From Alphaproteobacteria bacterium (lineage in GTDB: Bacteria; Pseudomonadota; Alphaproteobacteria; HIMB59; GCA-002718135), in contig JBJKYR010000053.1 in NCBI GenBank assembly GCA_045560945.1, forward strand, positions 7,605 through 71,604: DNA of 64,000 nucleotides, in the 5' to 3' direction. The notes below the pieces were generated by a model. It saw only the letters and a program-made list of their open reading frames with translations, was not told where the DNA came from and searched no databases. The first letter of the stretch is position 1. Each line of letters starts with the position of its first letter. The translations under genes were made by a program, and so were the position numbers. Shown one piece after another: positions 2,994-20,648 of this stretch.

Positions 2994-4232
2994 TTAATTT
3001 ACACTTTCAGCTGCCATTGCATCCATAAACTCTTGTGCAGATGCAGCACCACCAATAACTTTTTGTAATTCTTGTGTCACGGTGTCATACATACCAGGCG
3101 TAGCCCAGTCTGTATAGAAAGTTTTAGCGTTAGCTCCTACTAAAGCATTTGATGCCGCAATAACTTCCGCTTGAAGATTTGAAGTTGGATCAATTGTAGG
3201 AGATTGTGCTGGCACTCTCCCTACACCCATTAAATCATCAATGAACTCATTACTTAACAAATGATTAATAAATTTTGCTGCTAAGGCTGGATTAGCTGAT
3301 TTAGAACTAATGTGCCATGGTAATGCGAAAGAGCCACCACCGGCTACCCCCCCACTCGCTCTTGGCATAGCAAAAGCTCCAACATTATCACCCATACCTG
3401 AATTAAAATCAGCTGTCATCCATGTACCAGTTAAATTGAAAACACCTTGTCCATTCATAAACATTGCATTAGCATCATCATATCCAATTCCTAGAGAGTC
3501 AGAACCAAAATACCCTGCGCTAGCCATATCAGCAAGTTTTGCAGCTGCTCTCATTCTATCATCAGTCATAAAATCAGTATTTTTAGCATTGAAAATCCAA
3601 CTTCTTGTTTGATTTGGATCAACAAAAGCTCCTTCTACTAATCCCCATACGTGAATAATTGGCCATCCATCTGCTCCACCTAGTGCAATTGGTAATTCAC
3701 CAGCATCTTTTGATACTTGCAATGCATTTTCAAATTCAGCAAAATTTGATGGAACTGATAGTCCAAGGGATGCAAGCTTATCTTTGTTGTAATAAACAAT
3801 TACATCTTCTGCTACAGGACTGATGCCATAAAGATTTCCAGAGCCCCAAGTTGTTCCATCGTCACTCCACATAAATTCAGCTAATGCTCCATCTGCAAAA
3901 AGATTTTTCCAACCATATGCATCGGCATATTTTTCTAATGAAATAACCAATCCATTTTGAATAAGTGTTCCGTCAACAGTAAATCCTTGGTTACCATGAG
4001 CAAGATCAGGCGGATTATTATCTGCCATTTTTAATTTAATAGTAGACATGAAGTCGTCCCATCCAAGATAGCTTGCTTCAACAGTAACACCGGGATTAGC
4101 TTCTTCAAATTGTGCGATAGCAGCTGTTAGAGTAGCTTCATCTCCTGCTTCAGCCAGTATACGAAGATTATCAGCTTTACTTGCAAATGAAAAAGCAAGA
4201 ATAGCTGTGATAATCAAAAATATTTTTTTCAT
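2994..4232 (-). CDS. Extracellular sugar-binding protein of ABC transporter (family 1 SBP)
   Basis: 412 aa with an N-terminal signal peptide (MKKIFLIITAILAFSFASKA). Size and composition are typical of CUT1 solute-binding proteins, and it is the first gene of the SBP-permease-permease operon. Confidence 0.8.
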   Translation of the reverse strand: MKKIFLIITAILAFSFASKADNLRILAEAGDEATLTAAIAQFEEANPGVTVEASYLGWDDFMSTIKLKMADNNPPDLAHGNQGFTVDGTLIQNGLVISLEKYADAYGWKNLFADGALAEFMWSDDGTTWGSGNLYGISPVAEDVIVYYNKDKLASLGLSVPSNFAEFENALQVSKDAGELPIALGGADGWPIIHVWGLVEGAFVDPNQTRSWIFNAKNTDFMTDDRMRAAAKLADMASAGYFGSDSLGIGYDDANAMFMNGQGVFNLTGTWMTADFNSGMGDNVGAFAMPRASGGVAGGGSFALPWHISSKSANPALAAKFINHLLSNEFIDDLMGVGRVPAQSPTIDPTSNLQAEVIAASNALVGANAKTFYTDWATPGMYDTVTQELQKVIGGAASAQEFMDAMAAESVN

Positions 4233-4387
4233 TTAACCTCCCAGTTATTATGTAAGACATATAAGAATACAAAATTATCAAAAAATCAAAAAAAATTTCA
4301 CTTAATTATTAAGATTACTTTCTAAGTGTATAAAAAATTCTATGATTTAGTTGAAAATATAAGACTTTTGGTGTTAAATATTATTCA

Positions 4388-5713
4388 ATGACAGAAAAAA
4401 TAGTATTAATTGGTGCTGGTAGTGCAAATTTTGGCTTAGAGGCTGTATCTGATATTTATCGCTCTAAAATTCTTGAAGGGAGTGATATTGTACTACATGA
4501 TACTGATGCAAAGTCTCTTAAAGAAACTCAAGAAGTAGCAGATAAATACAAAGGAGAGTTCGGTGTTACTTTTAATGTTAAGTCTTCTATAGACCGAAAA
4601 GAAGCATTAAAGGGAGCTACAGTAATAGTAATATCAATTGAAGTTGCACCTCGATTTGGTTTATGGGATCAGGATTGGAAAATTCCTCAACAATATGGTA
4701 TGAAACAAATTTATGCAGAAAATGGTGGTCCTGGTGGTTTATTTCATTCGTTAAGAATAATCCCACCAATTTTAGAAATTTGTGAAGATATAAATAATAT
4801 ATGTCCTGAGGCCTATGTTTATAATTTTAGTAACCCCATGCAAAGAATTTGTCATGCAGTAACTGTAAAGTATCCAAATATGAAATTTATTGGATTATGT
4901 CATGCTATAGCGGAAATGGAAAGAGATTTACCTGAATTATTAAATACAGATTTTTCTAATATTGAATATCGTGCTGGAGGATTAAATCATATTAGTATTC
5001 TTACCGATGTAAAATATAAAGATACAAAAAAAGATGCATACCCTCTTATAAGAAAAAAGGCATTAGAATATTACAAGAACTATATTATTGATTTTGAAAA
5101 AATGAATGAACAATCTACTTCACCTGGAGCTGAAAGAGGAATATTTTTAAAATTATTTGAAACATATAATTATTTACCAATCACAACTGATAGTCATCTT
5201 GGTGAATATCTCCCTTGGGCTCATAGTATTGCTGATCATTATGCTATTCTAGAATTTTATAAAAATTATAAAGTAAATTGTCAGACTATCTATAGGTCAG
5301 AAAAAATGCACAGTTTTTATTTTGATCAAAATCGTCATTCTAAAGAAAGGCTTGTAGATTTAATGGAAGCTGTTGTAGAGGATCGAAATATGGAAGAAGC
5401 AGCCGTTAATATTCTAAATGAAGGATATATAAAACAACTTCCTAATGATATAGTTGTAGAAGTGCCAGCAATGGTAAACAAAAAAGGCATTAAGGGCATT
5501 AAATTAGATAATTATCCGGATAATTTTGCTTCAATTCTAGTTAATCAAGTTGGAACTATTCGTTTAACAACAACTGCTGTATTAGAGCAATCAAAAGAAG
5601 CTGCCTTTCATGCTTTATTAGCAGATCCAGTTGTGGATAATTTTGGTCAAGCTCAAAAATTATTAGATACTATGATAACTTTTCAAAAAGAACATTTAGG
5701 TTATTTAAAATAA
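4388..5713 (+). CDS. Glycoside hydrolase family 4 (NAD+/Mn2+-dependent glycosidase)
   Basis: 441 aa with an N-terminal Rossmann motif (KIVLIGAGSANFG) and the conserved FIGLCHA cysteine motif characteristic of GH4. Confidence 0.8.
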   Translation: MTEKIVLIGAGSANFGLEAVSDIYRSKILEGSDIVLHDTDAKSLKETQEVADKYKGEFGVTFNVKSSIDRKEALKGATVIVISIEVAPRFGLWDQDWKIPQQYGMKQIYAENGGPGGLFHSLRIIPPILEICEDINNICPEAYVYNFSNPMQRICHAVTVKYPNMKFIGLCHAIAEMERDLPELLNTDFSNIEYRAGGLNHISILTDVKYKDTKKDAYPLIRKKALEYYKNYIIDFEKMNEQSTSPGAERGIFLKLFETYNYLPITTDSHLGEYLPWAHSIADHYAILEFYKNYKVNCQTIYRSEKMHSFYFDQNRHSKERLVDLMEAVVEDRNMEEAAVNILNEGYIKQLPNDIVVEVPAMVNKKGIKGIKLDNYPDNFASILVNQVGTIRLTTTAVLEQSKEAAFHALLADPVVDNFGQAQKLLDTMITFQKEHLGYLK

Positions 5714-5714
5714 A

Positions 5715-6818
5715 TTGATACATTTAGGTATTATTGGATGTGGCTCAGTTATGCAGGGTCCTTACATGGAGTTAGTAAATAAACTTGCATTTAAAAATAT
5801 CATAAATTTAAAATCTATTTCTGATAAAAATGTAAAATTAGAGAGAGTTTTAAAAAAAAAATTTAAATTTCAATATTTTTATAATGATTATAAAAAAATT
5901 CTAAATGATAAACAAATTGATGTTGTACTTATTTTAACATCAATGAACGAACATGCATCTATTGCCAAAGAGGCTTTATTAAGTAAGAAACATGTTTTGG
6001 TTGAAAAACCTATGTCTACAAATATGGAAGATTTAAAAAAATTATTTTTACTTGCAAAAAAATCTAAAAATTTATTTGTGGCTGCTCCTTTCGTTATATT
6101 AAGTCCTACTTTTCAAGCAATTCATCAAGAAATAAATAATAACACTATAGGTAAGATATCTTTAGCAAGAGCTAGATATGGATGGTCCGGTCCGAACTGG
6201 GGTGAATGGTATTATAAAACAGGTGGTGGACCACTTTTTGATCTAGGAGTGTATAATATTACAACTTTAACAGGCCTTTTAGGGCCTGTTAAAAATATTA
6301 TAGCAAAATCATCAATTTCAAAACCATTTAGAAAAATAAATGGAAAAAAAATAAAAGTTATCACGGATGATAATTTTCAAATTTTATTAGAATTTCAAAA
6401 TAAATGTATATCAGTTGTTACAACTGGCTTCACTATGCAACAATATAGTTCACCAGCAGTTGAGCTTTACGGATCAGATGGAACTATTCAAATGCTTGGT
6501 GATGATTGGGAACCTAAAGGATATGAAATTTGGAACAATAAGAGATCTTCATGGGAATTATTTAAAACTCCATATGCTAATTGGCCTTGGGCATCGGGCT
6601 TTACACATCTTATTGATTGCATTATTAATAAAAAAAAACCTATGATATGCTTAGACCATGCGTACCATGTTAATGAAATTATGATTAAAATTTATGAGTC
6701 TTCTAAAAAAAATAAATCAATTTCTATTAATAGTTCTTTTAAACCTTTAAAATTTAATAAAAAAATTAAAATTAAAAAAAGCTATTTAGATCATGACAGG
6801 AATCATGATGACATATAA
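5715..6818 (+). CDS. Gfo/Idh/MocA family NAD(P)-dependent oxidoreductase
   Basis: 367 aa with a TTG start 1 nt after the GH4 stop. It has N-terminal GIIGCGSV and the EKPM motif (VLVEKPMS) typical of Gfo/Idh/MocA. Confidence 0.8.
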   Translation: MIHLGIIGCGSVMQGPYMELVNKLAFKNIINLKSISDKNVKLERVLKKKFKFQYFYNDYKKILNDKQIDVVLILTSMNEHASIAKEALLSKKHVLVEKPMSTNMEDLKKLFLLAKKSKNLFVAAPFVILSPTFQAIHQEINNNTIGKISLARARYGWSGPNWGEWYYKTGGGPLFDLGVYNITTLTGLLGPVKNIIAKSSISKPFRKINGKKIKVITDDNFQILLEFQNKCISVVTTGFTMQQYSSPAVELYGSDGTIQMLGDDWEPKGYEIWNNKRSSWELFKTPYANWPWASGFTHLIDCIINKKKPMICLDHAYHVNEIMIKIYESSKKNKSISINSSFKPLKFNKKIKIKKSYLDHDRNHDDI

Positions 6819-7629
6819 GTCCTCACCAAAACCAAATTATTTTAAACCAACTCTTATAAAATATGAATTAATGGAAACGTATATTTGGGGTGATGCTGAA
6901 GCAGGAAATGTTAAGGATTGGATCTATGTATCCAATGAAAGCTTACATCAGATAATATTTGGAATGGAGCCAGGTGCTAATTTCAAACATTCTAACCAAT
7001 ATAGGACAATATTTGGAGCTGATGAATTATTATATGTTCTTTCGGGAGTTTTAGTAATTAGTAATCCTGAAACTGGAGAAGTGCAAAAAATTAATAAGGG
7101 TGAGTCAGTTTTTTTCCGTAAAGATACATGGCATCATGCATTTAATTTTAGTAATGAATATTTGCAAGTTTTAGAGTTTTTTTCACCACCTCCAATCACC
7201 GGAACGTCAGGAGCTTATGGTAAAAAACAAAAGTTACTTACACATTCTATTTATAATTGCAATAAAGACAATACTAATGATGAATCATTTATTAAGGAGA
7301 GATCCTTTAAAACAATTAGAGAAAAAGATTATATTTGGTCAATTGATGGTCCAAATCAAGAAACATTAATAGGAACATTAATTAAAACAGAATTTTTAGA
7401 TGTTAGAATTATTACTTTAGGTGCGTTTAAAAAAAGTCATATATTTAAATATGATAAAAATACTTCTTACTTAAGTTTAGATGATAATTTGAGAGTAAAC
7501 ATTATTGAAGAAAAAAATTGTTATAATTTAAAAAAGAAAGATGGTTTATATATTCCGAGCTTAACTCAGTTTACACTTGAAAATTTAAATAATTATGAAG
7601 CAAGAATAATTATTTGTGTTGGTTTATAA
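6793..7629 (+). CDS. Cupin-domain protein (function unknown)
   Basis: 278 aa. The N-terminal half has a cupin-like G-x5-H...WHHAFN pattern. The C-terminal half is low-complexity and AT-driven. It overlaps the preceding gene by 26 nt, so the true start may be a downstream Met. Confidence 0.45.
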   Translation: MTGIMMTYKSSPKPNYFKPTLIKYELMETYIWGDAEAGNVKDWIYVSNESLHQIIFGMEPGANFKHSNQYRTIFGADELLYVLSGVLVISNPETGEVQKINKGESVFFRKDTWHHAFNFSNEYLQVLEFFSPPPITGTSGAYGKKQKLLTHSIYNCNKDNTNDESFIKERSFKTIREKDYIWSIDGPNQETLIGTLIKTEFLDVRIITLGAFKKSHIFKYDKNTSYLSLDDNLRVNIIEEKNCYNLKKKDGLYIPSLTQFTLENLNNYEARIIICVGL

Positions 7630-7823
7630 GATTACTTTTTATTAACTGATTCAAAAATTAATTGAAATAAATAGTGGCACCGACAAGGAGTAAATTCACA
7701 ACAAGTACAGTGCAAAATAAAAGAACTATTTTATCTATCAATGCCACAGTTATAATCTAAAGATCAAAATTGACATCAAAGAGGTCTAAATGTGTTGGTA
7801 ATAAGATATTAAAATAATAATCT

Positions 7824-7900
7824 TGGCGTGCCCGGCATGATTCGAACATACGACCCCCAGATTAGGAATCTGGTGCTCTATCCAACTGAGCTACGGGCAC
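7824..7900 (-). tRNA. tRNA-Arg (anticodon CCT), CCA encoded
   Basis: Hand-folded cloverleaf. The acceptor is GTGCCCG/CGGGCAC, the D-arm is GCTC-AGTTGGATA-GAGC, the anticodon stem is CCAGA/TCTGG with loop TTCCTAA, the T-loop is TTCGAAT, and the 3' end is CCA. Confidence 0.9.
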
Positions 7901-7927
7901 TTATTTATTTATAGTCGTTTTATCAAG

Positions 7928-8764
7928 TTAGTTATTAAAAGTAATAGCTTTAAATTTTTGCGTTTGAGTCATAAGCGCTTGTTCAACTGGTAAACGCTCC
8001 ATACTGCTAGCCCCATAAAAACCTTGAATATTTTTACAATTATTAAGAATAAAACTAGCATCATTTGGCATAGCTATTGGACCTCCATGACAAAGAACAA
8101 TAATGTCATCACGAATATTACGTGCAGCTTCTGCCCATTCATCAATAATAGGAATACAATCTTTTAAATTTAATACTGTTTCCGACCCGATGCTGCCACC
8201 AGAAGTTAAACCCATATGACAAACAATGATATCAGCGCCAGCTTTGGTCATTTTTTCAGCATCTTTTTTAGAAAAAACATAAGGTGTGGTGAGCATATCA
8301 TGCTTGTTTGCTTTTTTAATCATGTCAACTTCAAGGTTGTAACTCATTCCTGTCTCTTCTAAATTTTCTCTAAAAACACCATCAATAAGTCCAACTGTTG
8401 GAAAATTCTGAACACCTGAAAAACCTAATCGTTTTAATTCAGGTATGAAGACATCAAGGTCACAAAAGGGATCAGTGCCATTTATACCTGCTATAACAGG
8501 TGTTTTTTTAGTAACAGGTAAAATCTCTTTAGCCATATCAAGTAATATTTCATTAGCATTACCATATGCGAGTAAACCTGCTAGAGATCCCAGTCCAGCC
8601 ATACGGTAGCGACCTGAATTATAAATGACAATTAAATCAATACCTCCAGCCTCTTCCCATTTAGCTGAAAGACCTGTCCCTGCACCGCCTCCAATAATAG
8701 GTTCACGTCTTACAATCATACTTTTAAATTTTGCAAGTATCTGAGATCGTTCAATTATAGGCAT
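7928..8764 (-). CDS. Phosphoenolpyruvate-hydrolase-like TIM-barrel protein (Tm-1 C-terminal-domain-like), function unknown
   Basis: 278 aa. The N-terminus ([49 protein letters not shown]) matches the conserved start of the TIM-barrel family that is normally paired with UPF0261 proteins. Confidence 0.7.
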
Positions 8765-8773
8765 AAATATTCT

Positions 8774-9958
8774 TTATATGATTTTTTTAAATTGTTTAAC
8801 TAATTCCTTTGAAAATTCTGGATCGTTGATGTTGTGATTAAGTTTAATTAGTTTTCTTTTCTCTGTCTGCATTACGTTGTTCTCTATAGCGTCAAAAAGA
8901 GCTGCATCAGCTCTGGGATTATAAAATACTTGCCCTTCTGAGTCTAGTGAAGATAAGCCTTTTAAAGGTAATAAAAAACGTACCTCTCCTTTCATTTGAT
9001 TAAGTTTATCAGCAATCCATTGACCTATATATTTATTTTCTTCTATTGTAGTACGCATAAGAGTAACATTTGAATTATGAGAGTGTAACTTTCTTTCTTT
9101 GTATTTTTGGGGTACACTTTCTTTTGCTCCAAAGTTAACCATATCCAAAGCGCCACAAGAACCAACATAAGGAAGTTTGGTACGAATAATACTATTTAAA
9201 CGATCTTCACCAGCACTAAAAACACCACCCATTAGAAGATCACAAATTTCTGTTGTCGTTGCATCAATTAGCCCTTTAACAAATCCTGATTCAACTAATT
9301 TTTCCATTGATTGTCCTCCTGTTCCTGTGGCATGAAAAACAATACAATCAAAATCAGATTCGAGTTCTTTTACTACTGCTTGAATACAGGGTGTAGTAAC
9401 CCCAAACATACTCAGACCTATGGCAGGTTTATTTTTAACTTTTGGGATACAAGATTTGACCATACCAGCAATTGCATGAGCACCATTACCTAAAACTTTT
9501 CTAGAAATTCTATTTAAACCTTGAATATCTGTAATCGAATATATCATACAGATATCATTAGGTCCTACATAAGGTTGAACGTTACCAGAGGCTACCGTTG
9601 AAATCATAACCTTAGGTATTCCAACAGGTAAAGTTCGCATTGCTGCTGTGACCAATTCTGTTCCACCTGAACCACCTGCACTAATAATACCTTCAATATC
9701 AGTTCGTGAACTAATAAAATGTTTAAGTGCAATACTCATTTGCGTTATTGCTTTACCACGATCATCATCAAATACGTTTACTGCTCTGTTTGGATGATGA
9801 TTTGCAACAATCTGAGAATTTACATCTACATTTTTAGAATTAACTAATGTGCTTACATCAACGAGTAAAGTTGAAGTACCAGTACGTTTAATTAAATCAC
9901 TTATATAGTTTAATTCTAGTCCTTTGGTATCGAATGTGCCAATCACATATATAGTCAT
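8774..9958 (-). CDS. UPF0261 / Tm-1-like ATP-binding domain protein, function unknown
   Basis: 394 aa. The YVIGTFDTKGLEL start and SAGGSGGTELV motif are typical of UPF0261. It sits 9 nt upstream of its usual TIM-barrel partner. Confidence 0.7.
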   Translation of the reverse strand: MTIYVIGTFDTKGLELNYISDLIKRTGTSTLLVDVSTLVNSKNVDVNSQIVANHHPNRAVNVFDDDRGKAITQMSIALKHFISSRTDIEGIISAGGSGGTELVTAAMRTLPVGIPKVMISTVASGNVQPYVGPNDICMIYSITDIQGLNRISRKVLGNGAHAIAGMVKSCIPKVKNKPAIGLSMFGVTTPCIQAVVKELESDFDCIVFHATGTGGQSMEKLVESGFVKGLIDATTTEICDLLMGGVFSAGEDRLNSIIRTKLPYVGSCGALDMVNFGAKESVPQKYKERKLHSHNSNVTLMRTTIEENKYIGQWIADKLNQMKGEVRFLLPLKGLSSLDSEGQVFYNPRADAALFDAIENNVMQTEKRKLIKLNHNINDPEFSKELVKQFKKII

Positions 9959-9961
9959 AGC

Positions 9962-10396
9962 TTAGCTTTTATTAGACAAACTACCAGGAGGTAAAATATG
10001 TTTGGCCATGTCACGTAATAAATCCTCAGGTCCAGGAGGGGCATAAATAGCAATAAGTTTTAGTGTCTCCCATGATGTATTTATTGTTTCATGATAAATA
10101 TCTGCAGGAATATGAATAAGCATACCTGCTTTAATAAGTTTGCGTTCTTCTTTCATACCTCCATGATCATCAGAAATTTCTACCATTTGTTCACCTTCGC
10201 CAGAAATGACATATAAAATTTCTTCAACTCCAGGATGATTATGTCTAGTATGCCCTTTACCAGGTTCAAGTAAAACTACTCCTGATGTGAATTTTTTTGC
10301 ATCATTATGATTAGGTGTGCTCATCCATTTTATAGTGCCCCAATCAAAGACTTGTGTTTCAATATCTTCAGGTGAAATAAATCTCTTATTTGACAT
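9962..10396 (-). CDS. Small cupin-domain protein
   Basis: 144 aa with cupin motifs GHTRHNHPGVEEILYVISGEG and IPADIYHETIN. It is the first gene of the three-gene operon and ends 3 nt before the next start. Confidence 0.7.
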   Translation of the reverse strand: MSNKRFISPEDIETQVFDWGTIKWMSTPNHNDAKKFTSGVVLLEPGKGHTRHNHPGVEEILYVISGEGEQMVEISDDHGGMKEERKLIKAGMLIHIPADIYHETINTSWETLKLIAIYAPPGPEDLLRDMAKHILPPGSLSNKS

Positions 10397-10555
10397 ATGT
10401 CTTTACTTTCCCATCATGTATAAAAAAAACTAAATTAATTACAGAGATAATAATAAATGTTTAAATTAGCACAATGTAGTTATAAATTTATAAGATATTA
10501 TAAATTTTTCAGGATCTCAATAAAAAACAATATTGCTAAAAATCAGTTGTTGTCT

Positions 10556-10600
10556 ATTCGATTAGGAGTCTAATGCTCTATCCTACTGAGCTACGAGTAC
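10556..10600 (-). pseudogene. Degenerate 5'-half copy of tRNA-Arg(CCT) (acceptor 5' strand, D-arm, anticodon stem-loop only)
   Basis: The minus-strand read GTACTCGTAGCTCAGTAGGATAGAGCATTAGACTCCTAATCGAAT aligns to positions 1 to about 40 of the tRNA at 7824-7900. By hand alignment about 37 of 44 positions are identical. Similarity ends at the 3' side of the anticodon stem, and no T-arm or 3' acceptor strand follows. Confidence 0.7.
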
Positions 10601-10715
10601 AACTAACAAAACCTTAATTTTTTACCTAGTAGACTCTCTAAAAAATATAATCTATTGTTAATAAGTAAATTTAACTCATTGACAAATCAAATCTGAATTG
10701 TTTTAAATAATCAAC

Positions 10716-11054
10716 ATGAAAATATTACTATTTGTGATCTTTTTACTAACTTCATTTTGCAAATTTTCATTTTCAGATGAGCATTCAGATGAGCAAAAAA
10801 TTATTGAAATGGGTGATATAGAATATGGACAATATTTAGCTGCTGAATGTGCGTCATGCCATCAGCAGTCAGGAGCTAGTGAAGGCATTCCTTCAATACA
10901 CGGTATGGATGCAGAGGTTTTCGTTGCTTTAATGCTTGCTTACAGATCAAAAGAGATGGAAAATCCTGTTATGCAAATGATCGCTGGGAGACTTGATGAT
11001 GAACAAATTGGTTCATTGGCTCTTTATTTTAGTCAAGTAGAACCCTCAGAATGA
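10716..11054 (+). CDS. Monohaem c-type cytochrome (FccA/SoxE-like partner of the sulfide dehydrogenase flavoprotein)
   Basis: 112 aa with a signal peptide, a single CASCH haem-binding motif and a downstream Met-rich ligand region (NPVMQMIAG). It lies immediately upstream of the flavoprotein gene. Confidence 0.7.
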   Translation: MKILLFVIFLLTSFCKFSFSDEHSDEQKIIEMGDIEYGQYLAAECASCHQQSGASEGIPSIHGMDAEVFVALMLAYRSKEMENPVMQMIAGRLDDEQIGSLALYFSQVEPSE

Positions 11055-11126
11055 TCATATTTTCATTTACTTAAGGTTAAAATTTGATAACATCTTATCA
11101 TATTACAATTTTTTGGGGAGGACATA

Positions 11127-12395
11127 ATGTCAAAAATTTCAAGACGTCTTTTTAATACAGGTATTGCTGCTGCCTCAGCTGCAACACTTGCTTTTCCATC
11201 TGTATCACTTGGTGCTTTACCAAGAGTTGTAGTTATTGGAGGAGGAGCAGGTGGTGCAACCGCAGCAAGATATATTGCTAAAGACTCTGGTGGTGCAGTT
11301 CATGTAACACTTGTTGAGGCATCAAAGCGATATTATACATGCTTTTTTTCTAATATTTATTTAGGTGGATTTCGAAATTATGGTTCGATAGGCCATAATT
11401 ACTATGGTTTAGCTGTAAACCAAGGTGTGAATGTTGTTCATGAGTGGGCTGTTTCAGTTGATTCAGTTGCTAGAAAGGTCAAGCTAGGTTCTGGTGAACA
11501 TCTTTCATATGATAAACTTGTTATTTCACCCGGAATTGATCTTAAGTATGATAAAATCAATGGATATTCTGCTGCAGTTCAAGATAAAATGCCTCATGCA
11601 TGGAAGTCTGGTACTCAGGTACAGTTATTAAGAAATCAAGTAATGAATATGAAGCAAGGTGGAACTTTTGTAATGGTTCCTCCTCCAAATCCATATAGAT
11701 GTCCACCTGGACCATATGAAAGAGTGTCTATGATCGCTCATCAATTTAAACAATCTAATCCTACAGGAAAAATTGTTATTTTAGATCCTAAACCTAAATT
11801 TTCTAAACAAGGTTTATTTGAGGCAGGATGGCAAAAACATTATCCAGGAATGATAGAGTGGATTAGCTCAGAAGATCATGGTGGGCTTAAAAATGTAAAT
11901 GCTTCTACAATGGAGTTTGAAACAGATTTAGATACATTTAAAGCTGATGCTGCATGTGTTGTCCCAGCTCAAAGAGCTGGTGCTATTGCAATGGCAGCAG
12001 GTGTTAACAATGGTGACTGGTGTCCTATTGTTCCTACATCCATGCAATCTCAAGCAGATGAAAATATTTATGTTTTAGGTGATGCATCTGTTGCTAAATC
12101 AATGCCAAAGTCTGGTTTTTCAGCCAACAGTCAAGCCAAAGTAGCAGCTAATCATATCAGAGGTGCTTTAACAGGAAGTAAAGTATTTGATGCTCGTTAT
12201 TCAAATACCTGCTGGTCACTAATTGCGCCTGATGATGATGTTAAGGTTGGTGCGAGTTATGTTGGTGGCGCAGAAGCTATTGATGTTGAAAGTAAATTTA
12301 TTTCACAAGCTGATGACACTAGTGAAACGAGAGCAGCTAACTATCAAGAATCTATAGATTGGTATAATGGTATAACTGCTGATATGTTTTCTTAA
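11127..12395 (+). CDS. Flavocytochrome c sulfide dehydrogenase flavoprotein subunit (FccB/SoxF-like)
   Basis: 422 aa with a Tat signal (SRRLFNTGIAAASAATLAF) and an FAD Rossmann motif (VVVIGGGAGGATAARY). It has the paired cysteine pattern (YRCPPGPYER) typical of FCSD/SoxF. Confidence 0.8.
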   Translation: MSKISRRLFNTGIAAASAATLAFPSVSLGALPRVVVIGGGAGGATAARYIAKDSGGAVHVTLVEASKRYYTCFFSNIYLGGFRNYGSIGHNYYGLAVNQGVNVVHEWAVSVDSVARKVKLGSGEHLSYDKLVISPGIDLKYDKINGYSAAVQDKMPHAWKSGTQVQLLRNQVMNMKQGGTFVMVPPPNPYRCPPGPYERVSMIAHQFKQSNPTGKIVILDPKPKFSKQGLFEAGWQKHYPGMIEWISSEDHGGLKNVNASTMEFETDLDTFKADAACVVPAQRAGAIAMAAGVNNGDWCPIVPTSMQSQADENIYVLGDASVAKSMPKSGFSANSQAKVAANHIRGALTGSKVFDARYSNTCWSLIAPDDDVKVGASYVGGAEAIDVESKFISQADDTSETRAANYQESIDWYNGITADMFS

Positions 12396-12423
12396 AACTT
12401 TTTAATTAATAGAAACAGATAAA

Positions 12424-12446
12424 GGCGGCTAATAGCCGCCTTTTTT
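12424..12446. terminator. Bidirectional rho-independent terminator between convergent fccB-like and soxB
   Basis: A perfect 7-bp GC-rich stem GGCGGCT/AGCCGCC with a 3-nt loop, followed by T6 on the plus strand and preceded by an A-run. The T-tract overlaps the soxB stop codon. Confidence 0.6.
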
Positions 12447-14130
12447 AAACTCCCTTAATTTGTACTAGATTGTTATTTTTTGCTTTGATAATTTTTTCAT
12501 CAGAAATATAATCTTCTAATAGTTTATAAATAGGAGGTCCTTCCACTTCGGGATTTATTGATCCCCAACCACCAATAGTATAATTTTTTTGCGATTCAAT
12601 TTTTTCACCATTAGATAATTTTAGATCACTTATTCTATTTCCCATTGTGTTCTTAGGTTGACAAGTATATGTCATTCCTCCAACTCTAACCATATCACCA
12701 CCTTGCTGGAAAAAAGGATCTGGATTAAAAATATTATCACATACGTCTTCTAAAAGATTTTTTATAGTCTCACCATTCATTTCAGTTCTATATACTTCTG
12801 GATAATTCATTGAAGTTTGTGAATAAATATCGTCAATAGTTATCTTTTGACCTGGTAATAAGGTTGTTCCCCATCTAAAACCTGGGCTTAATGAAATTTC
12901 TGCATCCCTTTCCTGAATAATTGCGTCACAAATCACACTATCCCAAGGCCCACCAAAATTACCTCTTCTATAAAGCAAGGTTTCAGTTGCTCCGACAACA
13001 CGATTACATTCTTCCTCATATGGTGCTCTAATTTTATCAATTAAACTTGTCATTTCTGGATCAGGTTGAATTACATCTGAAAAAATAGGTATTAAATTTG
13101 ATGAGAAATCAACAACTTTACCATTGTCAACTTTCAGATCAATCCTGCCTAAATATTTGCCATGAGATCCAGATGAAAGAAGTAAAGTATTTTTTATCTT
13201 AATTGCTCTTGGAATTGCATCATGAGTATGGCCAGTTAGTATAACATCAACATTATCTAAAATAGCTGCTAATTTCTGATCTACATCGAACCCATTATGA
13301 GATAATATAACTACTACTTCAGCACCATTTTTTTTTGCTTTATTTATATTTTTTTGAATGATTTCTGGTCTTATTCCAAAAGACCAACCATCAACTAAGT
13401 AGCTTGGATTAGCAATAGGAGTGTATGGGAAGTGTTGACCAATAACTGCAATATTAACACCTCCTTTCTCAAAATAAGAAGTGCTTTCAAAGACAGGTTC
13501 ATCCCATTCAGTATCAAAAACATTTCCACCAAGAAATGGAAAATTTATTTTATCAATTAATTCACTAAGCCGATCTTGGCCAAGCGTAAACTCCCAATGC
13601 CCTACCATAGCATCTGGTTTTAAGAGGTTCATTGCTTCTAACATATCTTCCCCTTGAGTTTTTAAAGAAGTGTATGAACCTTGCCATGTGTCACCACCAT
13701 CTAATAAAAGTACTTTATCCTCTCCTCTTTCTCCCCTGATTTTTTTAATCAAAGCTGATGTTCTGTCTAATCCTCCGAGTTTGCCATACTCTCTAGCTAA
13801 TGGAACATAGTCAAGCATAGTATGTGCGTAAGCGAGTGGTGTGTTGGGCTCAATGCCAAAATAATCTAAAAAAACTTTTCCAACAAGATGAGGAGGAATG
13901 CCTTCGTATTTTCCAATTCCAAAATTTTCTGATGGTGGCCTAAAAAAAACAGGTTTAAGTTGGCCATGTATATCAGTTATATGCAGTAAAGTAATTTGAC
14001 CTTTTGAGTCAAATTCTAAAAGATCATTTTCAGAAATTTCTTGTTTAGCGGCAACAGCGCTCCAACTTTTGCTACCAACCAACATTGCTGTAATTGTAGC
14101 TAATTGAATAAATTCTCGCCTCGATTGCAT
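12445..14130 (-). CDS. soxB: Sulfur-oxidation thiosulfohydrolase SoxB (5'-nucleotidase/metallophosphatase family)
   Basis: 561 aa with a Tat signal (SRREFIQLATITAM). Metallophosphoesterase motifs are present (LLHITDIHG, DGGDTWQG, GHWEF, LSHNG, GHTHD), followed by a C-terminal 5'-nucleotidase-like domain. It sits in a sox operon context. Confidence 0.9.
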   Translation of the reverse strand: MQSRREFIQLATITAMLVGSKSWSAVAAKQEISENDLLEFDSKGQITLLHITDIHGQLKPVFFRPPSENFGIGKYEGIPPHLVGKVFLDYFGIEPNTPLAYAHTMLDYVPLAREYGKLGGLDRTSALIKKIRGERGEDKVLLLDGGDTWQGSYTSLKTQGEDMLEAMNLLKPDAMVGHWEFTLGQDRLSELIDKINFPFLGGNVFDTEWDEPVFESTSYFEKGGVNIAVIGQHFPYTPIANPSYLVDGWSFGIRPEIIQKNINKAKKNGAEVVVILSHNGFDVDQKLAAILDNVDVILTGHTHDAIPRAIKIKNTLLLSSGSHGKYLGRIDLKVDNGKVVDFSSNLIPIFSDVIQPDPEMTSLIDKIRAPYEEECNRVVGATETLLYRRGNFGGPWDSVICDAIIQERDAEISLSPGFRWGTTLLPGQKITIDDIYSQTSMNYPEVYRTEMNGETIKNLLEDVCDNIFNPDPFFQQGGDMVRVGGMTYTCQPKNTMGNRISDLKLSNGEKIESQKNYTIGGWGSINPEVEGPPIYKLLEDYISDEKIIKAKNNNLVQIKGV

Positions 14131-14171
14131 TATGTTACTCTAAATTATTATCTTATAATTAACTTTAATAA

Positions 14172-14825
14172 CTATTCGTCTTCTGGAGTTACATCAATAT
14201 CTCTAGCTTTTCCAATAATTTTTGTAGATACTTGACAATTACTCATACAAGGGTTTCCGTGCGTATTCATGGTGTCTGGTCTTGGATCAGGTAATAAAAA
14301 ACCATCTTTATTTGGCATCTCTATTTCACCAATATTTGTATCTGATAAAACAAAATCTTCTTCGATTATGTCACCCATATATAGAAGATAGGCTACAATT
14401 CCATAGGTTTCATCATACGATAAGGATTGCGAATCACCATATGGCATTGCTCTATAAATATAATCAAAGATTGTAGATGCGAAGGGCCAGTAACTTGTAG
14501 CAGTTTTTTCCGGATCATGTGAAGCTAAACTACCTTCACCTCCAACGAGTGGAGGCCACCTATCTGCTCCTTCACCAAAATCACCATGGCATGCTGCGCA
14601 TTGTTCAGAGTATATTTCTTCACCAAACAAAGCAGTTCCACTTCCAATTGGTGCACCCAAACCATCAGGTCTCACATCAATATCCCATCCTACAACTTCT
14701 TCTTTAGAAGCAATCTCCCCTAAATTAAATTTTCTGTCACTAGCAATTGTTGTACTTGTTAAAAATATTATACATGCAAAGCTTAGTATGCTTTTAACCA
14801 AGCCTGACATTGTCAACCTTTCCAT
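14172..14825 (-). CDS. soxD: SoxD-like monohaem cytochrome c subunit of sulfane dehydrogenase
   Basis: About 212-217 aa with a signal peptide and a single CAACH motif. It overlaps the 3' end of soxC. The true start is probably the Met at 14810 (MSGLVKS...). Confidence 0.7.
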   Translation of the reverse strand: MERLTMSGLVKSILSFACIIFLTSTTIASDRKFNLGEIASKEEVVGWDIDVRPDGLGAPIGSGTALFGEEIYSEQCAACHGDFGEGADRWPPLVGGEGSLASHDPEKTATSYWPFASTIFDYIYRAMPYGDSQSLSYDETYGIVAYLLYMGDIIEEDFVLSDTNIGEIEMPNKDGFLLPDPRPDTMNTHGNPCMSNCQVSTKIIGKARDIDVTPEDE

Positions 14826-16083
14826 TTTTAGAAACTAGCCAAGTTGCTATTGAATTATTATGATAAATTGAATTCACACCTCTAATTTTTTGAAGTTCAT
14901 CAATAGTAGGTTGGACATAATTTGTCTCATCAATTGCTCTTGATTGTAATAGTAATTCCTCACCTTTCCATTCAAATGGCAATGTAAATCTAGTTAATGA
15001 TTTACTTAGAACTGGTGAGTGAAGTTGGGCAGTTTTCCAATTCTTGCCACCATCAATCGAAACATCTACACGTTTAATTTTACCTCTACCTGACCAAGCA
15101 AGACCTCTTAATTGATGCAATCCTTTTGCAAGTATTGGTTTTTCGGGACTTGGAGAAGTTATGACAGATTTAGCATCCATAACCCAGGTAAACATTCTAG
15201 CTTTTCCACTTGTTAACAAATCTGTATATTTAGATGTTTCTTCTCTAGTCATGTAAGGTTTGTCACCAAACTCTAGTCTCCTGATCCATTTTACCCACAT
15301 ATTACCTTCCCAACCAGGAACTACGAGGCGCGCCGGATAACCTTGTTCAGGTCTTAATGCTTCTCCATTCATTGCCCAGGCAATGATACAATCATCTAAA
15401 ATTTTTTCTATAGGAATAGAGCGTGTCATTCCTGATGAATCGCTTCCTTCAGCTAAAACCCACTTGGCTTTTTCTTTTAAACCAGTCTCTAAAAGTAGAT
15501 CAGATAATTTAACACCTGTGTATTGAACATTATGCACCATTCCAAAGGTGTATTGGCATCCATTTAATTGAGATCCTCTCCATTCCATACCACCATTTGC
15601 AGCACATTCAAGAAAGTAAAATTTATTTGTTTGAGGAAAGCGTTTTAAGTCATCAAGAGTAAATATCATTTCGCGATCTACTAAACCATTGATCATCAAT
15701 CTAAAGTCTTGTGGATTAATAACTGAAACACCCCCATGATGTCTTTCAAAGCAAAGACCATTAGGTGTTACAATTCCTTCAAGATCTTGTAATGGAGTAA
15801 AATTGACTGAAGATTCAGCACTTGCTGTAAGCCACTCAACATTTCTTCTTATGACATGTCCCTCAAACTCAGAAGGCATACCGTAAGGATTTACATCAAC
15901 GCCGTCACCAAGGTATTGTGTCCACTCAGGAAGGTTTGGTGGTAAGTTTTCAGGATTTACTTCTTCTGATAAAAGGTTTTTTGGAGCCAATGAAAAAGCT
16001 CCAATACTTGAGGCGCCAATTATTAAGTCTCTACGATTAAATTTTTTAAAGTTAGACACTTCATTTTTTTTATTTTTTTTCAC
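14794..16083 (-). CDS. soxC: SoxC molybdopterin sulfane/sulfite dehydrogenase subunit
   Basis: 429 aa with a Tat signal (NRRDLIIGASS) and sulfite-oxidase-family Moco-domain motifs (FERHHGG, FLECAANG, ARLVVPGWEGNMWVKW). A C-terminal dimerisation domain follows. Confidence 0.85.
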   Translation of the reverse strand: MKKNKKNEVSNFKKFNRRDLIIGASSIGAFSLAPKNLLSEEVNPENLPPNLPEWTQYLGDGVDVNPYGMPSEFEGHVIRRNVEWLTASAESSVNFTPLQDLEGIVTPNGLCFERHHGGVSVINPQDFRLMINGLVDREMIFTLDDLKRFPQTNKFYFLECAANGGMEWRGSQLNGCQYTFGMVHNVQYTGVKLSDLLLETGLKEKAKWVLAEGSDSSGMTRSIPIEKILDDCIIAWAMNGEALRPEQGYPARLVVPGWEGNMWVKWIRRLEFGDKPYMTREETSKYTDLLTSGKARMFTWVMDAKSVITSPSPEKPILAKGLHQLRGLAWSGRGKIKRVDVSIDGGKNWKTAQLHSPVLSKSLTRFTLPFEWKGEELLLQSRAIDETNYVQPTIDELQKIRGVNSIYHNNSIATWLVSKNGKVDNVRLG

Positions 16084-16085
16084 TA

Positions 16086-16412
16086 TTAAGAAACAACCAT
16101 ATCTTTAGAGATTGAATATATTTCCCCATTATCGTCTATCCATTCAAAATCAAATTTACCACTTTCTTTCGCTTTAAATTGAAAAACAATATAAGGATTG
16201 GTTGATATTGACGGCTCAAGATCCATCTGAAAAACTTCTTTTCCATTAAATTTAGCACTAAATGAATTAATTATATGTCTTGGTATTGTTTGACCATCCA
16301 TATCTTTCATTCTACCACTATGCATAGGGTGTCTAATTAATGTTTTAATTTCAACAACCTCATCAATAGATACTTCTTTAGGTACTTTTACTCTTGGTTT
16401 AATTGAAGACAT
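16086..16412 (-). CDS. soxZ: SoxZ sulfur-carrier complex subunit
   Basis: 108 aa. Its size, its position directly after soxY, and the KTLIRHPMHSG segment are typical of SoxZ. Confidence 0.8.
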   Translation of the reverse strand: MSSIKPRVKVPKEVSIDEVVEIKTLIRHPMHSGRMKDMDGQTIPRHIINSFSAKFNGKEVFQMDLEPSISTNPYIVFQFKAKESGKFDFEWIDDNGEIYSISKDMVVS

Positions 16413-16426
16413 AATTACTCCTTATA

Positions 16427-16903: not shown

Positions 16904-16970
16904 AGATTGTAAAGAAAGTAAATATTTAATATATTATGTAATAATAAATTTATTCAAATCAATCAAATAT

Positions 16971-20631: not shown

Positions 20632-20648
20632 ATTAATTAAGAAATTAA

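What the first reader, a model, noticed from the sequence alone, without database searches (positions are those of the whole stretch)
7928..10396. Split Tm-1-like pair (UPF0261 + PEP-hydrolase-like TIM barrel) with a dedicated cupin: a compact operon of unknown function
Seen: three co-directional, almost abutting genes encode a 144-aa cupin, a 394-aa UPF0261 protein and a 278-aa TIM-barrel protein. The N-terminus of the TIM-barrel protein matches the family that habitually accompanies UPF0261.

Established: the two larger proteins correspond to the N- and C-terminal halves of the plant Tm-1 protein. To my knowledge the bacterial pair has no assigned biochemical function.

Inference: the constant pairing, the metal-binding cupin and the island-like context (see the tRNA finding) suggest a small self-contained enzymatic system. 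It could be an ATP-dependent transformation of a phosphorylated or enol-type small molecule, acquired as a unit.
Basis: partly seen in the sequence, partly recalled or inferred. Interest (0 to 1): 0.55.

Follow-up and report, generated by a model that had tools for sequence, protein, structure and literature searches.

The report
Portable three-gene Tm-1-like enzyme cassette
Three abutting genes (a metal-binding cupin, a homologue of an ATP-dependent kinase, and that protein's constant TIM-barrel partner) form a conserved module of unknown substrate that moves between genomes and occurs in marine bacteria, rhizobia and salt-loving archaea.

Summary
Three co-directional genes on the minus strand, 3 and 9 nt apart, encode a 144-aa cupin, a 394-aa UPF0261 protein and a 278-aa PF09370 TIM barrel.

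UPF0261 and TIM are adjacent in 75 of 80 surveyed genomes. The cupin is a real third partner, but only in some lineages. Searching from the cupin alone, 62 of 80 metagenome loci carry UPF0261 and/or TIM beside it, in three gene orders. The same cupin family sits with the pair in Sinorhizobium meliloti pSymA and Haloferax volcanii pHV3. Most other bacteria instead have an SRPBCC protein, usually a branched-chain-type ABC importer, and often the importer's ATPase fused to UPF0261.

In 2025 MarK, a standalone UPF0261 protein, was shown to be an ATP-to-ADP aromatic kinase. Its ATP-site and acceptor-site residues are conserved here, but several pocket residues differ. I found no reaction reported for the paired form.

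The triad is a portable cassette. It is bracketed by a tRNA-Arg gene and a 41-nt copy of that tRNA's 5' half, and relatives share only these about 2.7 kb.

Best reading: an ATP-dependent three-enzyme module acting on a hydroxyl or enol group of a small molecule. The substrate is unknown.

The parts
9962..10396 (-). Cupin gene (144 aa). It has the canonical metal site: H52, H54, E58/E59 and H102, all invariant in the family. H49, R51, N53 and N106 are also invariant.
   Evidence: ORF. Cupin_2 E = 2.6e-13. 25-sequence alignment with invariant columns. AlphaFold model with pLDDT 91. Foldseek best matches are generic 3His/1Glu metallocupins, at most 26% identical.
8774..9958 (-). UPF0261 (Tm-1-like ATP-binding) gene, 394 aa. 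Probable ATP-dependent kinase.
   Evidence: The alignment to MarK (PDB 9MPY) and Tm-1 gives these correspondences: MarK D14/T15/K16 = D10/T11/K12; G195 = G186; H219 = H209; H304 = H294. All of these are invariant in A1. MarK H348 corresponds to L338, F283 to M273, I285 to N275 and T196 to V187.
7928..8764 (-). PF09370 ('PEP_hydrolase'/TBST) TIM-barrel gene, 278 aa. Constant partner of UPF0261.
   Evidence: Homologues in other phyla are more than 70% identical. Model and fold search.
10397..10546 (-). Leader and promoter region of the cassette, conserved in close relatives. It holds promoter-like hexamers and a direct repeat TTGTAA-N4-TTGTAA (TTATAA-N4-TTATAA in the window itself).
   Evidence: The blastn homology of L089-L094 with the window ends at 10526-10546 (L095 and L001 at about 10410). 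Alignment A5. Promoter-like sites. No Rfam family.
7824..7900 (-). tRNA-Arg(CCT) gene, 27 nt downstream of the TIM stop codon. Its 5' half (7860-7900) is one arm of the flanking direct repeat.
   Evidence: ARAGORN. Rfam tRNA, 67 bits. Repeat D1.
10560..10600 (-). Partial copy of the tRNA-Arg 5' half, from the acceptor stem to the anticodon loop. It is 35/41 identical, and similarity stops right after the anticodon loop. This is the other arm of the direct repeat, 2,700 nt from the first.
   Evidence: Sequence, alignment A3, repeat D1. A 22-nt core pattern has 0.00 matches expected by chance.

Best explanation
The three genes are one transcription unit. They encode a self-contained three-component enzyme module that uses ATP, and the module travels as a roughly 2.7-kb cassette.

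Proposed mechanism:
1. The UPF0261 protein uses ATP, giving ADP, to phosphorylate a hydroxyl of a small organic substrate. The hydroxyl is most likely phenolic or enolic. This is inferred by homology to MarK.
2. The TIM barrel binds that phosphorylated or enolate-type intermediate and converts it, by C-O/P-O cleavage, C-C cleavage or isomerisation. This is inferred from the constant pairing, the fusion of the two proteins in plants, and the barrel's resemblance to phosphate-binding and enolate-stabilising barrels.
3. The cupin carries out a substrate-specific step that needs a metal, either before or after the other two. This is inferred from its invariant 3His/1Glu site.

In most other bacteria the third component is an SRPBCC ligand-binding protein instead, and the pair is tied to a HAAT-type ABC importer. 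This indicates that the substrate is imported.

Shown: gene structure, family membership, conservation of the triad, conservation of the MarK catalytic residues, and the cassette boundaries. Inferred: every catalytic step and the substrate class.
For: Operon:
- Gaps of 3 and 9 nt, and no terminator on the coding strand.

Pair:
- TIM directly follows UPF0261 in 75 of 80 GTDB genomes.
- The two co-occur and co-evolve (PMC5028733).

Cupin linkage:
- Of 80 loci retrieved with the cupin alone, 47 have UPF0261 directly downstream. Eight more have the pair nearby, and seven more have TIM directly upstream.
- Three gene orders occur.
- The same cupin family (44-50% identical) lies with the pair in S. 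meliloti pSymA, H. volcanii pHV3 and Haloarcula.

Kinase inference:
- MarK is an ATP-to-ADP aromatic kinase (PMC12624787).
- Its D-T-K ATP motif and its acceptor-site residues G195, H219 and H304 are invariant here.

Enzyme-like conservation:
- The cupin metal ligands are invariant.
- TIM is more than 70% identical across phyla, and its conserved loops are modelled as flexible.
- Fold neighbours of TIM are triosephosphate isomerase, 2-methylisocitrate lyase, KPHMT, ThiE and IGPS.

Imported substrate:
- The ABC ATPase is fused to UPF0261 in 55 of 80 genomes, inside a permease/ATPase operon.
- The importer is also present with the cupin-type triad in L085 and Haloferax.
- The importer's solute-binding proteins score best, after 4ZPJ, against entries I recall as aromatic-acid binders. 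RPA0668 and RPA0985 bind benzoate and 4-hydroxybenzoate.

Mobility.
Against: - No biochemical data exist for any UPF0261/TIM pair or for this cupin family.
- MarK works without a TIM partner, and its own mechanism is unresolved: its ATP site and substrate site are about 25 Angstrom apart.
- Four MarK pocket residues differ here (H348L, F283M, I285N, T196V), so the substrate is not acetovanillone-like.
- The window protein is closer to Tm-1 (3e-93) than to MarK (2e-53). Tm-1 is known only as an ATP-binding protein that binds a viral replicase.
- Fold searches give no specific enzyme relative for either the cupin or TIM.
- Neighbour genes point in different directions: sugar or cyclitol genes, molybdenum hydroxylases, peptidases and aminotransferases.
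- The S. meliloti operon (SMa1334-1329) was silent in rich medium and in nodules, and its polar mutant nodulated normally. That gives no substrate clue.
Confidence: 0.45

Rival explanations
1. An isomerase-kinase-aldolase shunt for a sugar, cyclitol or keto-acid. The cupin isomerises the substrate, UPF0261 phosphorylates it, and the TIM barrel cleaves the phosphorylated product as an aldolase or lyase. Known analogues, from my own knowledge, are IolB-IolC-IolJ, FucI-K-A and the 5-deoxyribose DrdI-K-A module.
For: - Carbohydrate genes recur near the window-type (cupin-UPF0261-TIM) clade.
  - Window: GH4, Gfo/Idh/MocA and a sugar-type solute-binding protein.
  - L001, L095 and L086: DUF6807 plus a 2-hydroxyacid dehydrogenase; L001 and L095 also have GH32.
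  - AP_endonuc_2 barrels, LacI, ROK and FGGY.
  - L087: Gfo/Idh/MocA plus an aldo-keto reductase.
  - Mesorhizobium pM0123a: a GntR regulator, a TIM-barrel protein and Gfo/Idh/MocA.
- Fold neighbours of TIM include class II FBP aldolase, methylisocitrate lyase, triosephosphate isomerase and RPE.
- Cupin neighbours include KdgF.
- A self-contained three-gene module with variable surroundings is typical of salvage shunts.
Against: - No neighbour family is conserved in more than 3 loci, and the cassette's flanks are unrelated between close relatives. Adjacency to sugar genes may therefore be accidental.
- In most bacteria the third partner is an SRPBCC protein, a fold that binds hydrophobic ligands and is not known in sugar isomerases.
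- The only known UPF0261 activity is on phenols.
- The linked importer is of the HAAT (amino acid/amide/aromatic acid) type, not a sugar type.
Confidence: 0.2
2. The pair is not a metabolic enzyme. It is a regulatory or coupling device that binds ATP and a ligand and controls an ABC importer or another protein. The cupin or the SRPBCC protein would be the ligand sensor. This resembles Tm-1, which acts by binding a protein through ATP.
For: - UPF0261 is fused to the LivF-type ATPase of an importer in 55 of 80 genomes.
- A flotillin-like gene lies in 52 of 87 loci.
- At the fringe of the cupin family there are cupin-PocR-histidine-kinase sensors and an ABC-ATPase-cupin fusion.
- The historical name of the TIM family is 'TIM-barrel signal transduction protein'.
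- Tm-1 binds its target through ATP.
Against: - MarK shows real catalysis in this family, and its catalytic residues are invariant here.
- The window cassette and many others have no importer nearby.
- The cupin keeps a full catalytic-type metal site across domains of life.
- More than 70% identity of TIM across phyla is typical of enzymes.
Confidence: 0.1
3. An ATP-driven ring opening or hydrolysis of a nitrogen-containing cyclic compound such as a lactam, hydantoin or N-heterocycle. UPF0261 would phosphorylate the lactim or enol oxygen, TIM would hydrolyse the activated intermediate, and the cupin would act as an amidohydrolase or decarboxylase. From my own knowledge, this is analogous in logic to 5-oxoprolinase.
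For: - Molybdenum hydroxylases (xanthine-dehydrogenase type) lie directly upstream of the triad in L003 and L004.
- An M24 creatinase/prolidase-type hydrolase is in the S. meliloti operon.
- M20 peptidase and aminotransferase neighbours occur.
- The importer is of the amino acid/amide (HAAT) type.
- There is a weak NCBIfam hit of the cupin to ureidoglycine aminohydrolase (E = 4e-4).
Against: - Each of these neighbours is seen in only one to three loci.
- The cupin hit is far below its cutoff (19.8 bits against 200).
- No such chemistry is known for UPF0261 or PF09370.
Confidence: 0.1

Closest known systems
MarK (Saro_1862) of Novosphingobium aromaticivorans, PDB 9MPY (PMC12624787)
   Same: Same two-domain UPF0261 fold family (E = 1.9e-53). 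The ATP-site D-T-K motif and acceptor-site G195/H219/H304 equivalents are conserved. It is the only family member with a demonstrated reaction: ATP-to-ADP phosphorylation of phenolic hydroxyls.
   Different: - MarK is a standalone homodimer with no TIM partner.
- It sits with a biotin carboxylase and a phosphatase (acvCDEF-like genes); none are present here.
- Pocket residues H348, F283, I285 and T196 differ here.
- The window protein is closer to Tm-1 than to MarK.
Tomato Tm-1 / plant Tm-1-like proteins (PDB 3WRV-3WRY; PMC5028733)
   Same: The window's UPF0261 and TIM proteins correspond to the N- and C-terminal parts of Tm-1 (E = 2.8e-93 for the N-terminal part). The ATP-contacting Lys20 of Tm-1 corresponds to K12.
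   Different: The plant protein is a single fused polypeptide. It is known only as an inhibitor of tobamovirus replicase, and its native function is unknown. It has no cupin partner. None of the three window proteins matches PADLOC defence models.
Mll9387 of Mesorhizobium loti (PDB 2P10, 'putative phosphonopyruvate hydrolase'; a structural-genomics entry)
   Same: 65-66% identical to the window TIM barrel, matched along the full length.
   Different: No activity has been shown. The name is a structural-genomics guess. The next-best folds are generic barrels with TM scores of about 0.5-0.57.
SRPBCC-type UPF0261/TIM operons with a HAAT ABC importer
   Same: Same UPF0261/TIM pair, 53-62% identical. 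Both have a third small protein of about 145 aa that could bind a ligand.
   Different: - The third protein is Polyketide_cyc2/SRPBCC, not a cupin, and lies downstream of TIM.
- UPF0261 is usually fused to the importer's LivF-type ATPase, and a flotillin-like gene is usually present.
- The cupin and the SRPBCC protein never co-occur in the 87 loci.
Cargo islands at tRNA genes flanked by partial tRNA copies (tycheposons and additive flexible genomic islands; bioRxiv 10.1101/2020.12.28.424599, PMC10872708)
   Same: A cargo-only gene set lies next to a tRNA gene and is bracketed by a partial copy of that tRNA. The same cassette occurs in different genomic surroundings in marine relatives.
   Different: - No integrase or replication gene lies within 5-10 kb or beside the cassette in L089, L094 or L095.
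- The repeated part is the 5' half of the tRNA, up to the anticodon loop. From my own knowledge, the 3' part is the one usually duplicated.
- The cassette is only 2.7 kb.
- It was not found on viral contigs.

Membership tests
UPF0261 (Pfam PF06792 + PF23189; NCBIfam NF002673) | Both domains matched along their full length, scoring above the curated cutoffs | tested here: met
   PF06792 209 bits and PF23189 307 bits (cutoff 27 each). NF002673 612.7 bits against 520.
MarK-type aromatic kinase | ATP-site motif D14-T15-K16 | tested here: met
   D10-T11-K12, invariant in 15 homologues.
MarK-type aromatic kinase | Phenol-binding residues G195, H219 and H304, conserved in more than 90% of MarK homologues | tested here: met
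   G186, H209 and H294 are aligned to them and invariant.
MarK-type aromatic kinase | Acetovanillone pocket: H348 (hydrogen bond to the ketone), F283, I285, T196 | tested here: not met
   These positions are L338, M273, N275 and V187 here.
MarK-type aromatic kinase | Standalone gene, co-located with acvCDEF/hpeCBAD carboxylase and phosphatase genes | tested here: not met
   Always paired with TIM. No carboxylase or phosphatase genes lie in the window or in the related loci examined.
MarK-type aromatic kinase | ATP-dependent phosphorylation of a phenolic substrate | not testable with these tools
   Needs an enzyme assay.
Tm-1-like (UPF0261 + TBST) system | A UPF0261 protein and a PF09370 TIM barrel encoded together, either adjacent or fused | tested here: met
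   Adjacent, 9 nt apart. Adjacent in 75 of 80 genomes.
PF09370 'PEP_hydrolase' family | Full-length profile match above the cutoff | tested here: met
   425.6 bits against 33.8, profile positions 1-267 of 267. 65% identical to 2P10.
PEP mutase / isocitrate lyase superfamily (origin of the name 'PEP hydrolase') | Specific structural similarity to superfamily members, beyond that of a generic TIM barrel | tested here: inconclusive
PEP mutase / isocitrate lyase superfamily (origin of the name 'PEP hydrolase') | PEP or phosphonopyruvate hydrolase activity | not testable with these tools
   No report was found in the literature.
Cupin superfamily (metal-binding) | Motif 1 G(X)5HXH(X)3-4E(X)6G and motif 2 G(X)5PXG(X)2H(X)3N (motifs as I recall them) | tested here: met
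   The sequence reads GHTRHNHPGVEEILYVISG ... GMLIHIPADIYHETIN. H52, H54, E58/E59, H102 and N106 are invariant. Cupin_2 E = 2.6e-13.
Oxalate decarboxylase, ureidoglycine aminohydrolase and WbuC cupin families | NCBIfam score above the curated cutoff | tested here: not met
   22.6 bits against 254; 19.8 against 200; 21 against 42. Best structural matches are at most 26% identical.
tRNA-targeting integrative cargo element (tycheposon-like) | Cargo next to a tRNA gene and flanked by a partial copy of that tRNA | tested here: met
   Repeats at 7860-7900 and 10560-10600, 85% identical. Flanking repeats also occur in L094 and L093.
tRNA-targeting integrative cargo element (tycheposon-like) | Own tyrosine or serine recombinase, with or without a replication module | tested here: not met
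   None among the genes annotated from 2994 to 22325, nor beside the cassette in L089, L094 and L095.
Known anti-phage defence systems | Match to a PADLOC model | tested here: not met
   No hits for any of the three proteins.

The most novel reading that the evidence does not exclude
The triad is a complete, so far undescribed catabolic device that activates its substrate with ATP. UPF0261 makes an aryl or enol phosphate of an enolisable cyclic compound, for example a phenolic acid or a diketone derived from a cyclitol. The TIM barrel, a new enzyme class, cleaves or rearranges that intermediate. The metallocupin completes the conversion; in other lineages an SRPBCC protein does so.

This would at last give the ancestral enzymatic function of plant Tm-1. 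In addition, the cassette would spread through attachment sites derived from a tRNA 5' half, using a recombinase supplied from elsewhere. That mode of cargo-only mobility has not been described.
Probability: 0.15. Interest if true: 0.8.

Novelty: new variant of a known kind. Interest (0 to 1): 0.55.

Why it matters
UPF0261 and its TIM-barrel partner occur in bacteria, archaea, fungi and plants, where they are fused as the antiviral protein Tm-1. Both searches here reached the 8,000-candidate limit. The pair still has no known reaction, and the first catalytic clue for the family dates only from 2025.

This work adds four things:
- A specific, highly conserved metallocupin is a third partner in several lineages.
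- An SRPBCC protein with an ABC importer is the alternative arrangement.
- The module moves as a unit.
- The same triad exists in organisms with good genetic tools: S. meliloti SMa1334-SMa1332-SMa1331 (mutant and reporter strains already published) and H. volcanii pHV3.

Together these make the function directly testable. The result would bear on marine and soil carbon turnover and on the origin of a plant virus-resistance gene.

Tried and rejected
- **Literature.** Searches for a characterised pair under many names (UPF0261, COG5441/COG5564, PF and IPR accessions, Mll9387, NCBI product names) found no reaction for the pair. Searching by PDB identifier for the ligands of the solute-binding proteins returned only noise.
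- **Fusions.** I looked for a cupin-UPF0261 fusion as evidence of physical coupling, using a profile search of 1.84 billion representatives. None was found. The long hits are cupin-PocR-histidine kinases, an ABC-ATPase-cupin fusion and a probable read-through.
- **Riboswitch.** No Rfam family matches the conserved leader.
- **Defence and viral contigs.** There are no PADLOC hits and no viral contigs.
- **Recombinase.** None was found beside the cassette.
- **Loci with TIM and cupin but no UPF0261 (L119, L164, L146).** Their neighbours are uninformative.
- **Neighbour clustering.** The first attempt, on raw longest ORFs, chained everything into one cluster because ORFs are over-extended in GC-rich DNA. 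I replaced it with a gene caller based on codon usage.
- **Rejected reading.** The cupin is not a chance neighbour. The linkage holds when searching from the cupin alone, and it holds across three gene orders and two domains of life.
Full report
**1. The observation**

The three ORFs exist exactly as described, on the minus strand: cupin 9962-10396 (144 aa), UPF0261 8774-9958 (394 aa) and TIM barrel 7928-8764 (278 aa). They are separated by 3 and 9 nt.

Profile searches confirm the families:
- Cupin_2 for the cupin.
- PF06792 plus PF23189 for the UPF0261 protein, and NCBIfam NF002673 above its cutoff.
- PF09370 along the whole profile for the TIM barrel.

The UPF0261 protein aligns end to end with the N-terminal region of tomato Tm-1 (E = 2.8e-93). 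The TIM barrel is 65% identical to Mll9387, PDB 2P10. No terminator-like site lies on the coding strand inside the operon. The window comes from a marine alphaproteobacterial MAG of about 30% G+C.

**2. What the literature says**

The co-occurrence and co-evolution of UPF0261 with the 'TIM-barrel signal transduction' (TBST) protein, and their fusion in plants, were described in 2016 (PMC5028733).

In 2025 a standalone UPF0261 protein, MarK of Novosphingobium aromaticivorans, was shown to phosphorylate acetovanillone and other phenolics, converting ATP to ADP. The authors call this the first catalytic activity for the domain. The crystal structure is 9MPY (PMC12624787).

Several further searches found no reaction for the paired form, for PF09370 or for this cupin.

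In the alignment to MarK, the following residues are conserved here and invariant among 15 homologues:
- The ATP-site D14-T15-K16, which is D10-T11-K12 here.
- The acceptor-site G195, H219 and H304, which are G186, H209 and H294 here.

H348, which hydrogen-bonds the ketone of acetovanillone, is L338 here. F283, I285 and T196 are M273, N275 and V187. The catalytic apparatus is therefore kept while the specificity pocket differs.

**3. The pair in other genomes**

A scan of GTDB species representatives returned 80 loci, 52-61% identical to the window protein. With a gene caller based on codon usage:
- TIM directly follows UPF0261 in 75 of 80 loci.
- In 55 of 80, the UPF0261 ORF is 705-826 aa long. 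Its N-terminal part is a LivF-type ABC ATPase fused in frame. It is preceded by a second ATPase and two BPD_transp_2 permeases.
- Within 6 kb on the same strand, 58 of 87 loci carry a Polyketide_cyc2/SRPBCC protein of about 145 aa (sometimes duplicated), and 52 carry a flotillin-like protein. Only 8 carry the cupin, and never together with the SRPBCC protein.

So the cupin is not a general companion of the pair.

**4. The cupin is nevertheless a dedicated partner**

The closest UPF0261 relatives (63-74% identical) all show cupin-UPF0261-TIM in otherwise different surroundings.

The cupin family is small and very conserved. Sequences about 60-70% identical occur in Chloroflexota and Latescibacteria. 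Only 33 cluster representatives score at or below 1e-30 among 1.84 billion. The residues H49, R51, H52, N53, H54, E58, E59, H102 and N106 are invariant.

I then searched from the cupin alone:
- Three of four long contigs again carry the pair.
- In a metagenome scan of 80 loci, 47 have UPF0261 directly downstream, 8 have the pair nearby and 7 have TIM directly upstream. Most of the remainder are contig ends.

Three gene orders occur: TIM-cupin-UPF0261 in 31 loci, cupin-UPF0261-TIM in 13, and UPF0261-TIM-cupin in 4. Adjacency that survives reshuffling is strong evidence of functional coupling.

The same cupin family lies with the pair in three further organisms:
- Haloferax volcanii pHV3: 50% identical, together with a HAAT importer.
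- Haloarcula: 49% identical.
- S. meliloti pSymA: 44% identical, in the order UPF0261-TIM-cupin-M24 peptidase.

A neighbour-joining tree places the cupin-linked UPF0261 proteins in at least two clades. The window's clade nests among SRPBCC-type sequences. No other neighbour family recurs in more than three loci, so the triad is the functional unit.

**5. A portable cassette**

tRNA-Arg(CCT) lies at 7824-7900, 27 nt downstream of TIM. A 41-nt copy of that tRNA's 5' half (35/41 identical) lies at 10560-10600, upstream of the cupin. Similarity ends just after the anticodon loop. Chance expectation for the 22-nt core is 0.00.

Marine relatives at 82-85% nucleotide identity align with the window only across roughly 10546 to 7936. 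Their flanks are unrelated to the window's and differ from one another: PEP carboxylase and a CoA ligase, dihydroxyacetone kinase, and DUF6807 with GH32.

In L094 and L093 the cassette is again flanked by direct repeats of 56 and 53 nt that contain the tRNA-half sequence, although no complete tRNA is present. Another sample yields a 2.8-kb contig holding only the triad.

Partial-tRNA repeats are the known signature of integrated cargo elements and additive islands in marine bacteria. Here, however, no recombinase is nearby, the 5' half rather than the 3' half is repeated, and the cassette is absent from viral contigs. 'Acquired as a unit' is therefore supported. The mechanism of movement is not established.

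**6. Structure-based inference**

The cupin model is confident (pLDDT 91). It resembles only generic 3His/1Glu metallocupins: quercetinase, KdgF, oxalate decarboxylase, TM1459 and ABP1. TM scores are at most 0.71 and identity at most 26%.

The TIM model has pLDDT 78. The low-confidence stretches coincide with the most conserved loops, residues 51-59, 187-195 and 253-258. It matches 2P10 closely. After that it matches triosephosphate isomerase, 2-methylisocitrate lyase, KPHMT, ThiE, IGPS, PdxS and class II aldolase about equally, with TM scores near 0.5-0.57.

The name 'PEP hydrolase' therefore has no specific support. The barrel is of a kind that often binds phosphate groups or stabilises enolates (my own knowledge of these families).

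**7. Substrate clues (weak and conflicting)**

For aromatic or enolic compounds:
- The MarK precedent.
- The SRPBCC alternative partner.
- Solute-binding proteins of the linked importers score best, after 4ZPJ (whose ligand I do not know), against 4EY3, 4EVQ, 4EVS and 4F06. I recall these as the Rhodopseudomonas benzoate and hydroxybenzoate binders.
- The literature confirms that RPA0668 and RPA0985 bind these ligands. The mapping of PDB codes to proteins rests on my memory.
- A fungal UPF0261 gene is induced late in wood decay.

For sugars or cyclitols:
- Glycoside hydrolases, Gfo/Idh/MocA, AP_endonuc_2, DUF6807, 2-hydroxyacid dehydrogenase, LacI and GntR genes lie near the window-type clade.

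For nitrogen compounds:
- Molybdenum hydroxylases, M24 and M20 hydrolases, aminotransferases and the HAAT importer.

In S. meliloti the operon SMa1334-1332-1331-1329 was silent in rich medium and in nodules, and a polar insertion nodulated normally. I inferred this mapping from the 398-aa length, the operon structure and the M24 annotation. The result fits an inducible catabolic function. A Brucella UPF0261 mutant was attenuated in a signature-tagged mutagenesis screen.

**8. Verdict**

The finding is real, and its description is accurate.
- The family now has one characterised kinase.
- The cupin is specific to certain lineages, with the SRPBCC protein as the alternative.
- The 'PEP hydrolase' label carries no information.

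The most likely mechanism is a three-step conversion. UPF0261 phosphorylates a hydroxyl or enol of a small molecule using ATP. The TIM barrel processes the activated intermediate. The metallocupin supplies a substrate-specific step. My confidence is about 0.45.

The main rivals are an isomerase-kinase-aldolase shunt (0.2), a regulatory or transport-coupling role (0.1) and ATP-driven opening of an N-heterocycle (0.1).

I rate it a new variant of a known but uncharacterised kind. Interest is moderate to high because the triad is widespread and mobile, and because it can now be tested in model organisms.

Noticed in passing
L022:9020-11236, L005:8852-11248, L048:9029-11200, L058:8939-11224, L014:8882-11209 (55 of the 80 loci L005-L084): UPF0261 is fused in frame to an N-terminal LivF-type ABC ATPase, giving proteins of 705-826 aa. 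The gene sits inside a permease-permease-ATPase operon. TIM follows, then usually a flotillin-like protein and an SRPBCC protein. This suggests that transport and the UPF0261 reaction are physically coupled. I did not find it described in the literature I searched.
   Followed up: partly
L022:15011-15448, L009:12064-12492, L031:12324-12776, L070:12045-12959: A conserved Polyketide_cyc2/SRPBCC protein of about 145 aa (motif RDFNxLPxWHPAI; duplicated in some loci) lies downstream of TIM in 58 of 87 loci. It never occurs together with the cupin, so it appears to be an alternative third component.
   Followed up: partly
window 10716-17791: A sulfur-oxidation cluster lies next to the cassette: cytochrome c and the flavocytochrome c sulfide dehydrogenase flavoprotein (10716-12395), a SoxB-like protein (12445-14130), a cytochrome c (14172-14825), a SoxC-like molybdoprotein (14794-16083), SoxZ, SoxY, a thioredoxin and a blue copper protein.
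   Followed up: partly
window 2994-7629: A sugar cluster lies on the other side of the tRNA: a solute-binding protein (SBP_bac_1), a GH4 glycosidase, a Gfo/Idh/MocA oxidoreductase and a 278-aa protein with a cupin domain. The last ORF overlaps the oxidoreductase ORF by 26 nt. It is unclear whether this cluster relates to the triad. The cassette's flanks differ in close relatives, so the adjacency may be accidental.
   Followed up: partly
window 17977-18053: A second tRNA-Arg gene (anticodon ACG) lies on the plus strand. It is followed by a GT61 glycosyltransferase (18109-19158) and an S49 peptidase (19137-20168). No integrase lies next to it.
   Followed up: partly
L089:6008-6097 and 6227-6284: In a close relative the cassette lies about 0.9 kb from a tRNA-Ser(GGA) gene, which has a 58-nt partial copy (91% identical) 193 nt further on. 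This is another tRNA-associated repeat beside the same cassette.
   Followed up: no
L093:1-53 and 3263-3315; L094:7097-7152 and 9959-10014: Contig L093 begins and ends with an 85%-identical 53-nt repeat made of tRNA-half sequence plus 29 further bases. In L094 the 56-nt repeat includes the 28 nt that follow the TIM stop codon. This suggests tandem arrays of cassettes, or attachment sites longer than the tRNA part.
   Followed up: partly
window 10397-10546 (alignment A5): The leader is conserved, with a direct repeat TTGTAA-N4-TTGTAA (TTATAA-N4-TTATAA in the window itself) next to promoter-like hexamers. This could be a regulator-binding site, but the cassette carries no regulator gene. The 3' half of the leader is much more AT-rich in the window than in its relatives.
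   Followed up: no
P0497, P0470, P0500, P0502: At the fringe of the cupin family there is an ABC-ATPase-cupin fusion (P0497) and cupin-PocR-histidine-kinase sensors (P0470, P0500). P0502 joins the C-terminal end of a PF09370 barrel to the cupin; it is either a read-through or a real fusion.
   Followed up: partly
L171:8992-12782 (S. meliloti pSymA; strain 1021 NC_003037.1 726446-730234): The rhizobial operon is UPF0261-TIM-cupin-M24 peptidase, beside a divergent HTH regulator gene and followed by an MFS transporter, next to the virB/T4SS region. It corresponds to SMa1334-SMa1332-SMa1331-SMa1329, for which an insertion mutant and a GUS fusion already exist (PMC3462710).
   Followed up: partly
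L003:1632-5334 and L004:3483-7394: Three-subunit molybdenum hydroxylases (xanthine/CO dehydrogenase type) lie upstream of the cupin-type triad in two unrelated genomes, immediately upstream in L004 and separated by an HD-domain gene and a LacI gene in L003. In L004 a CoxG/SRPBCC gene is also present.
   Followed up: no
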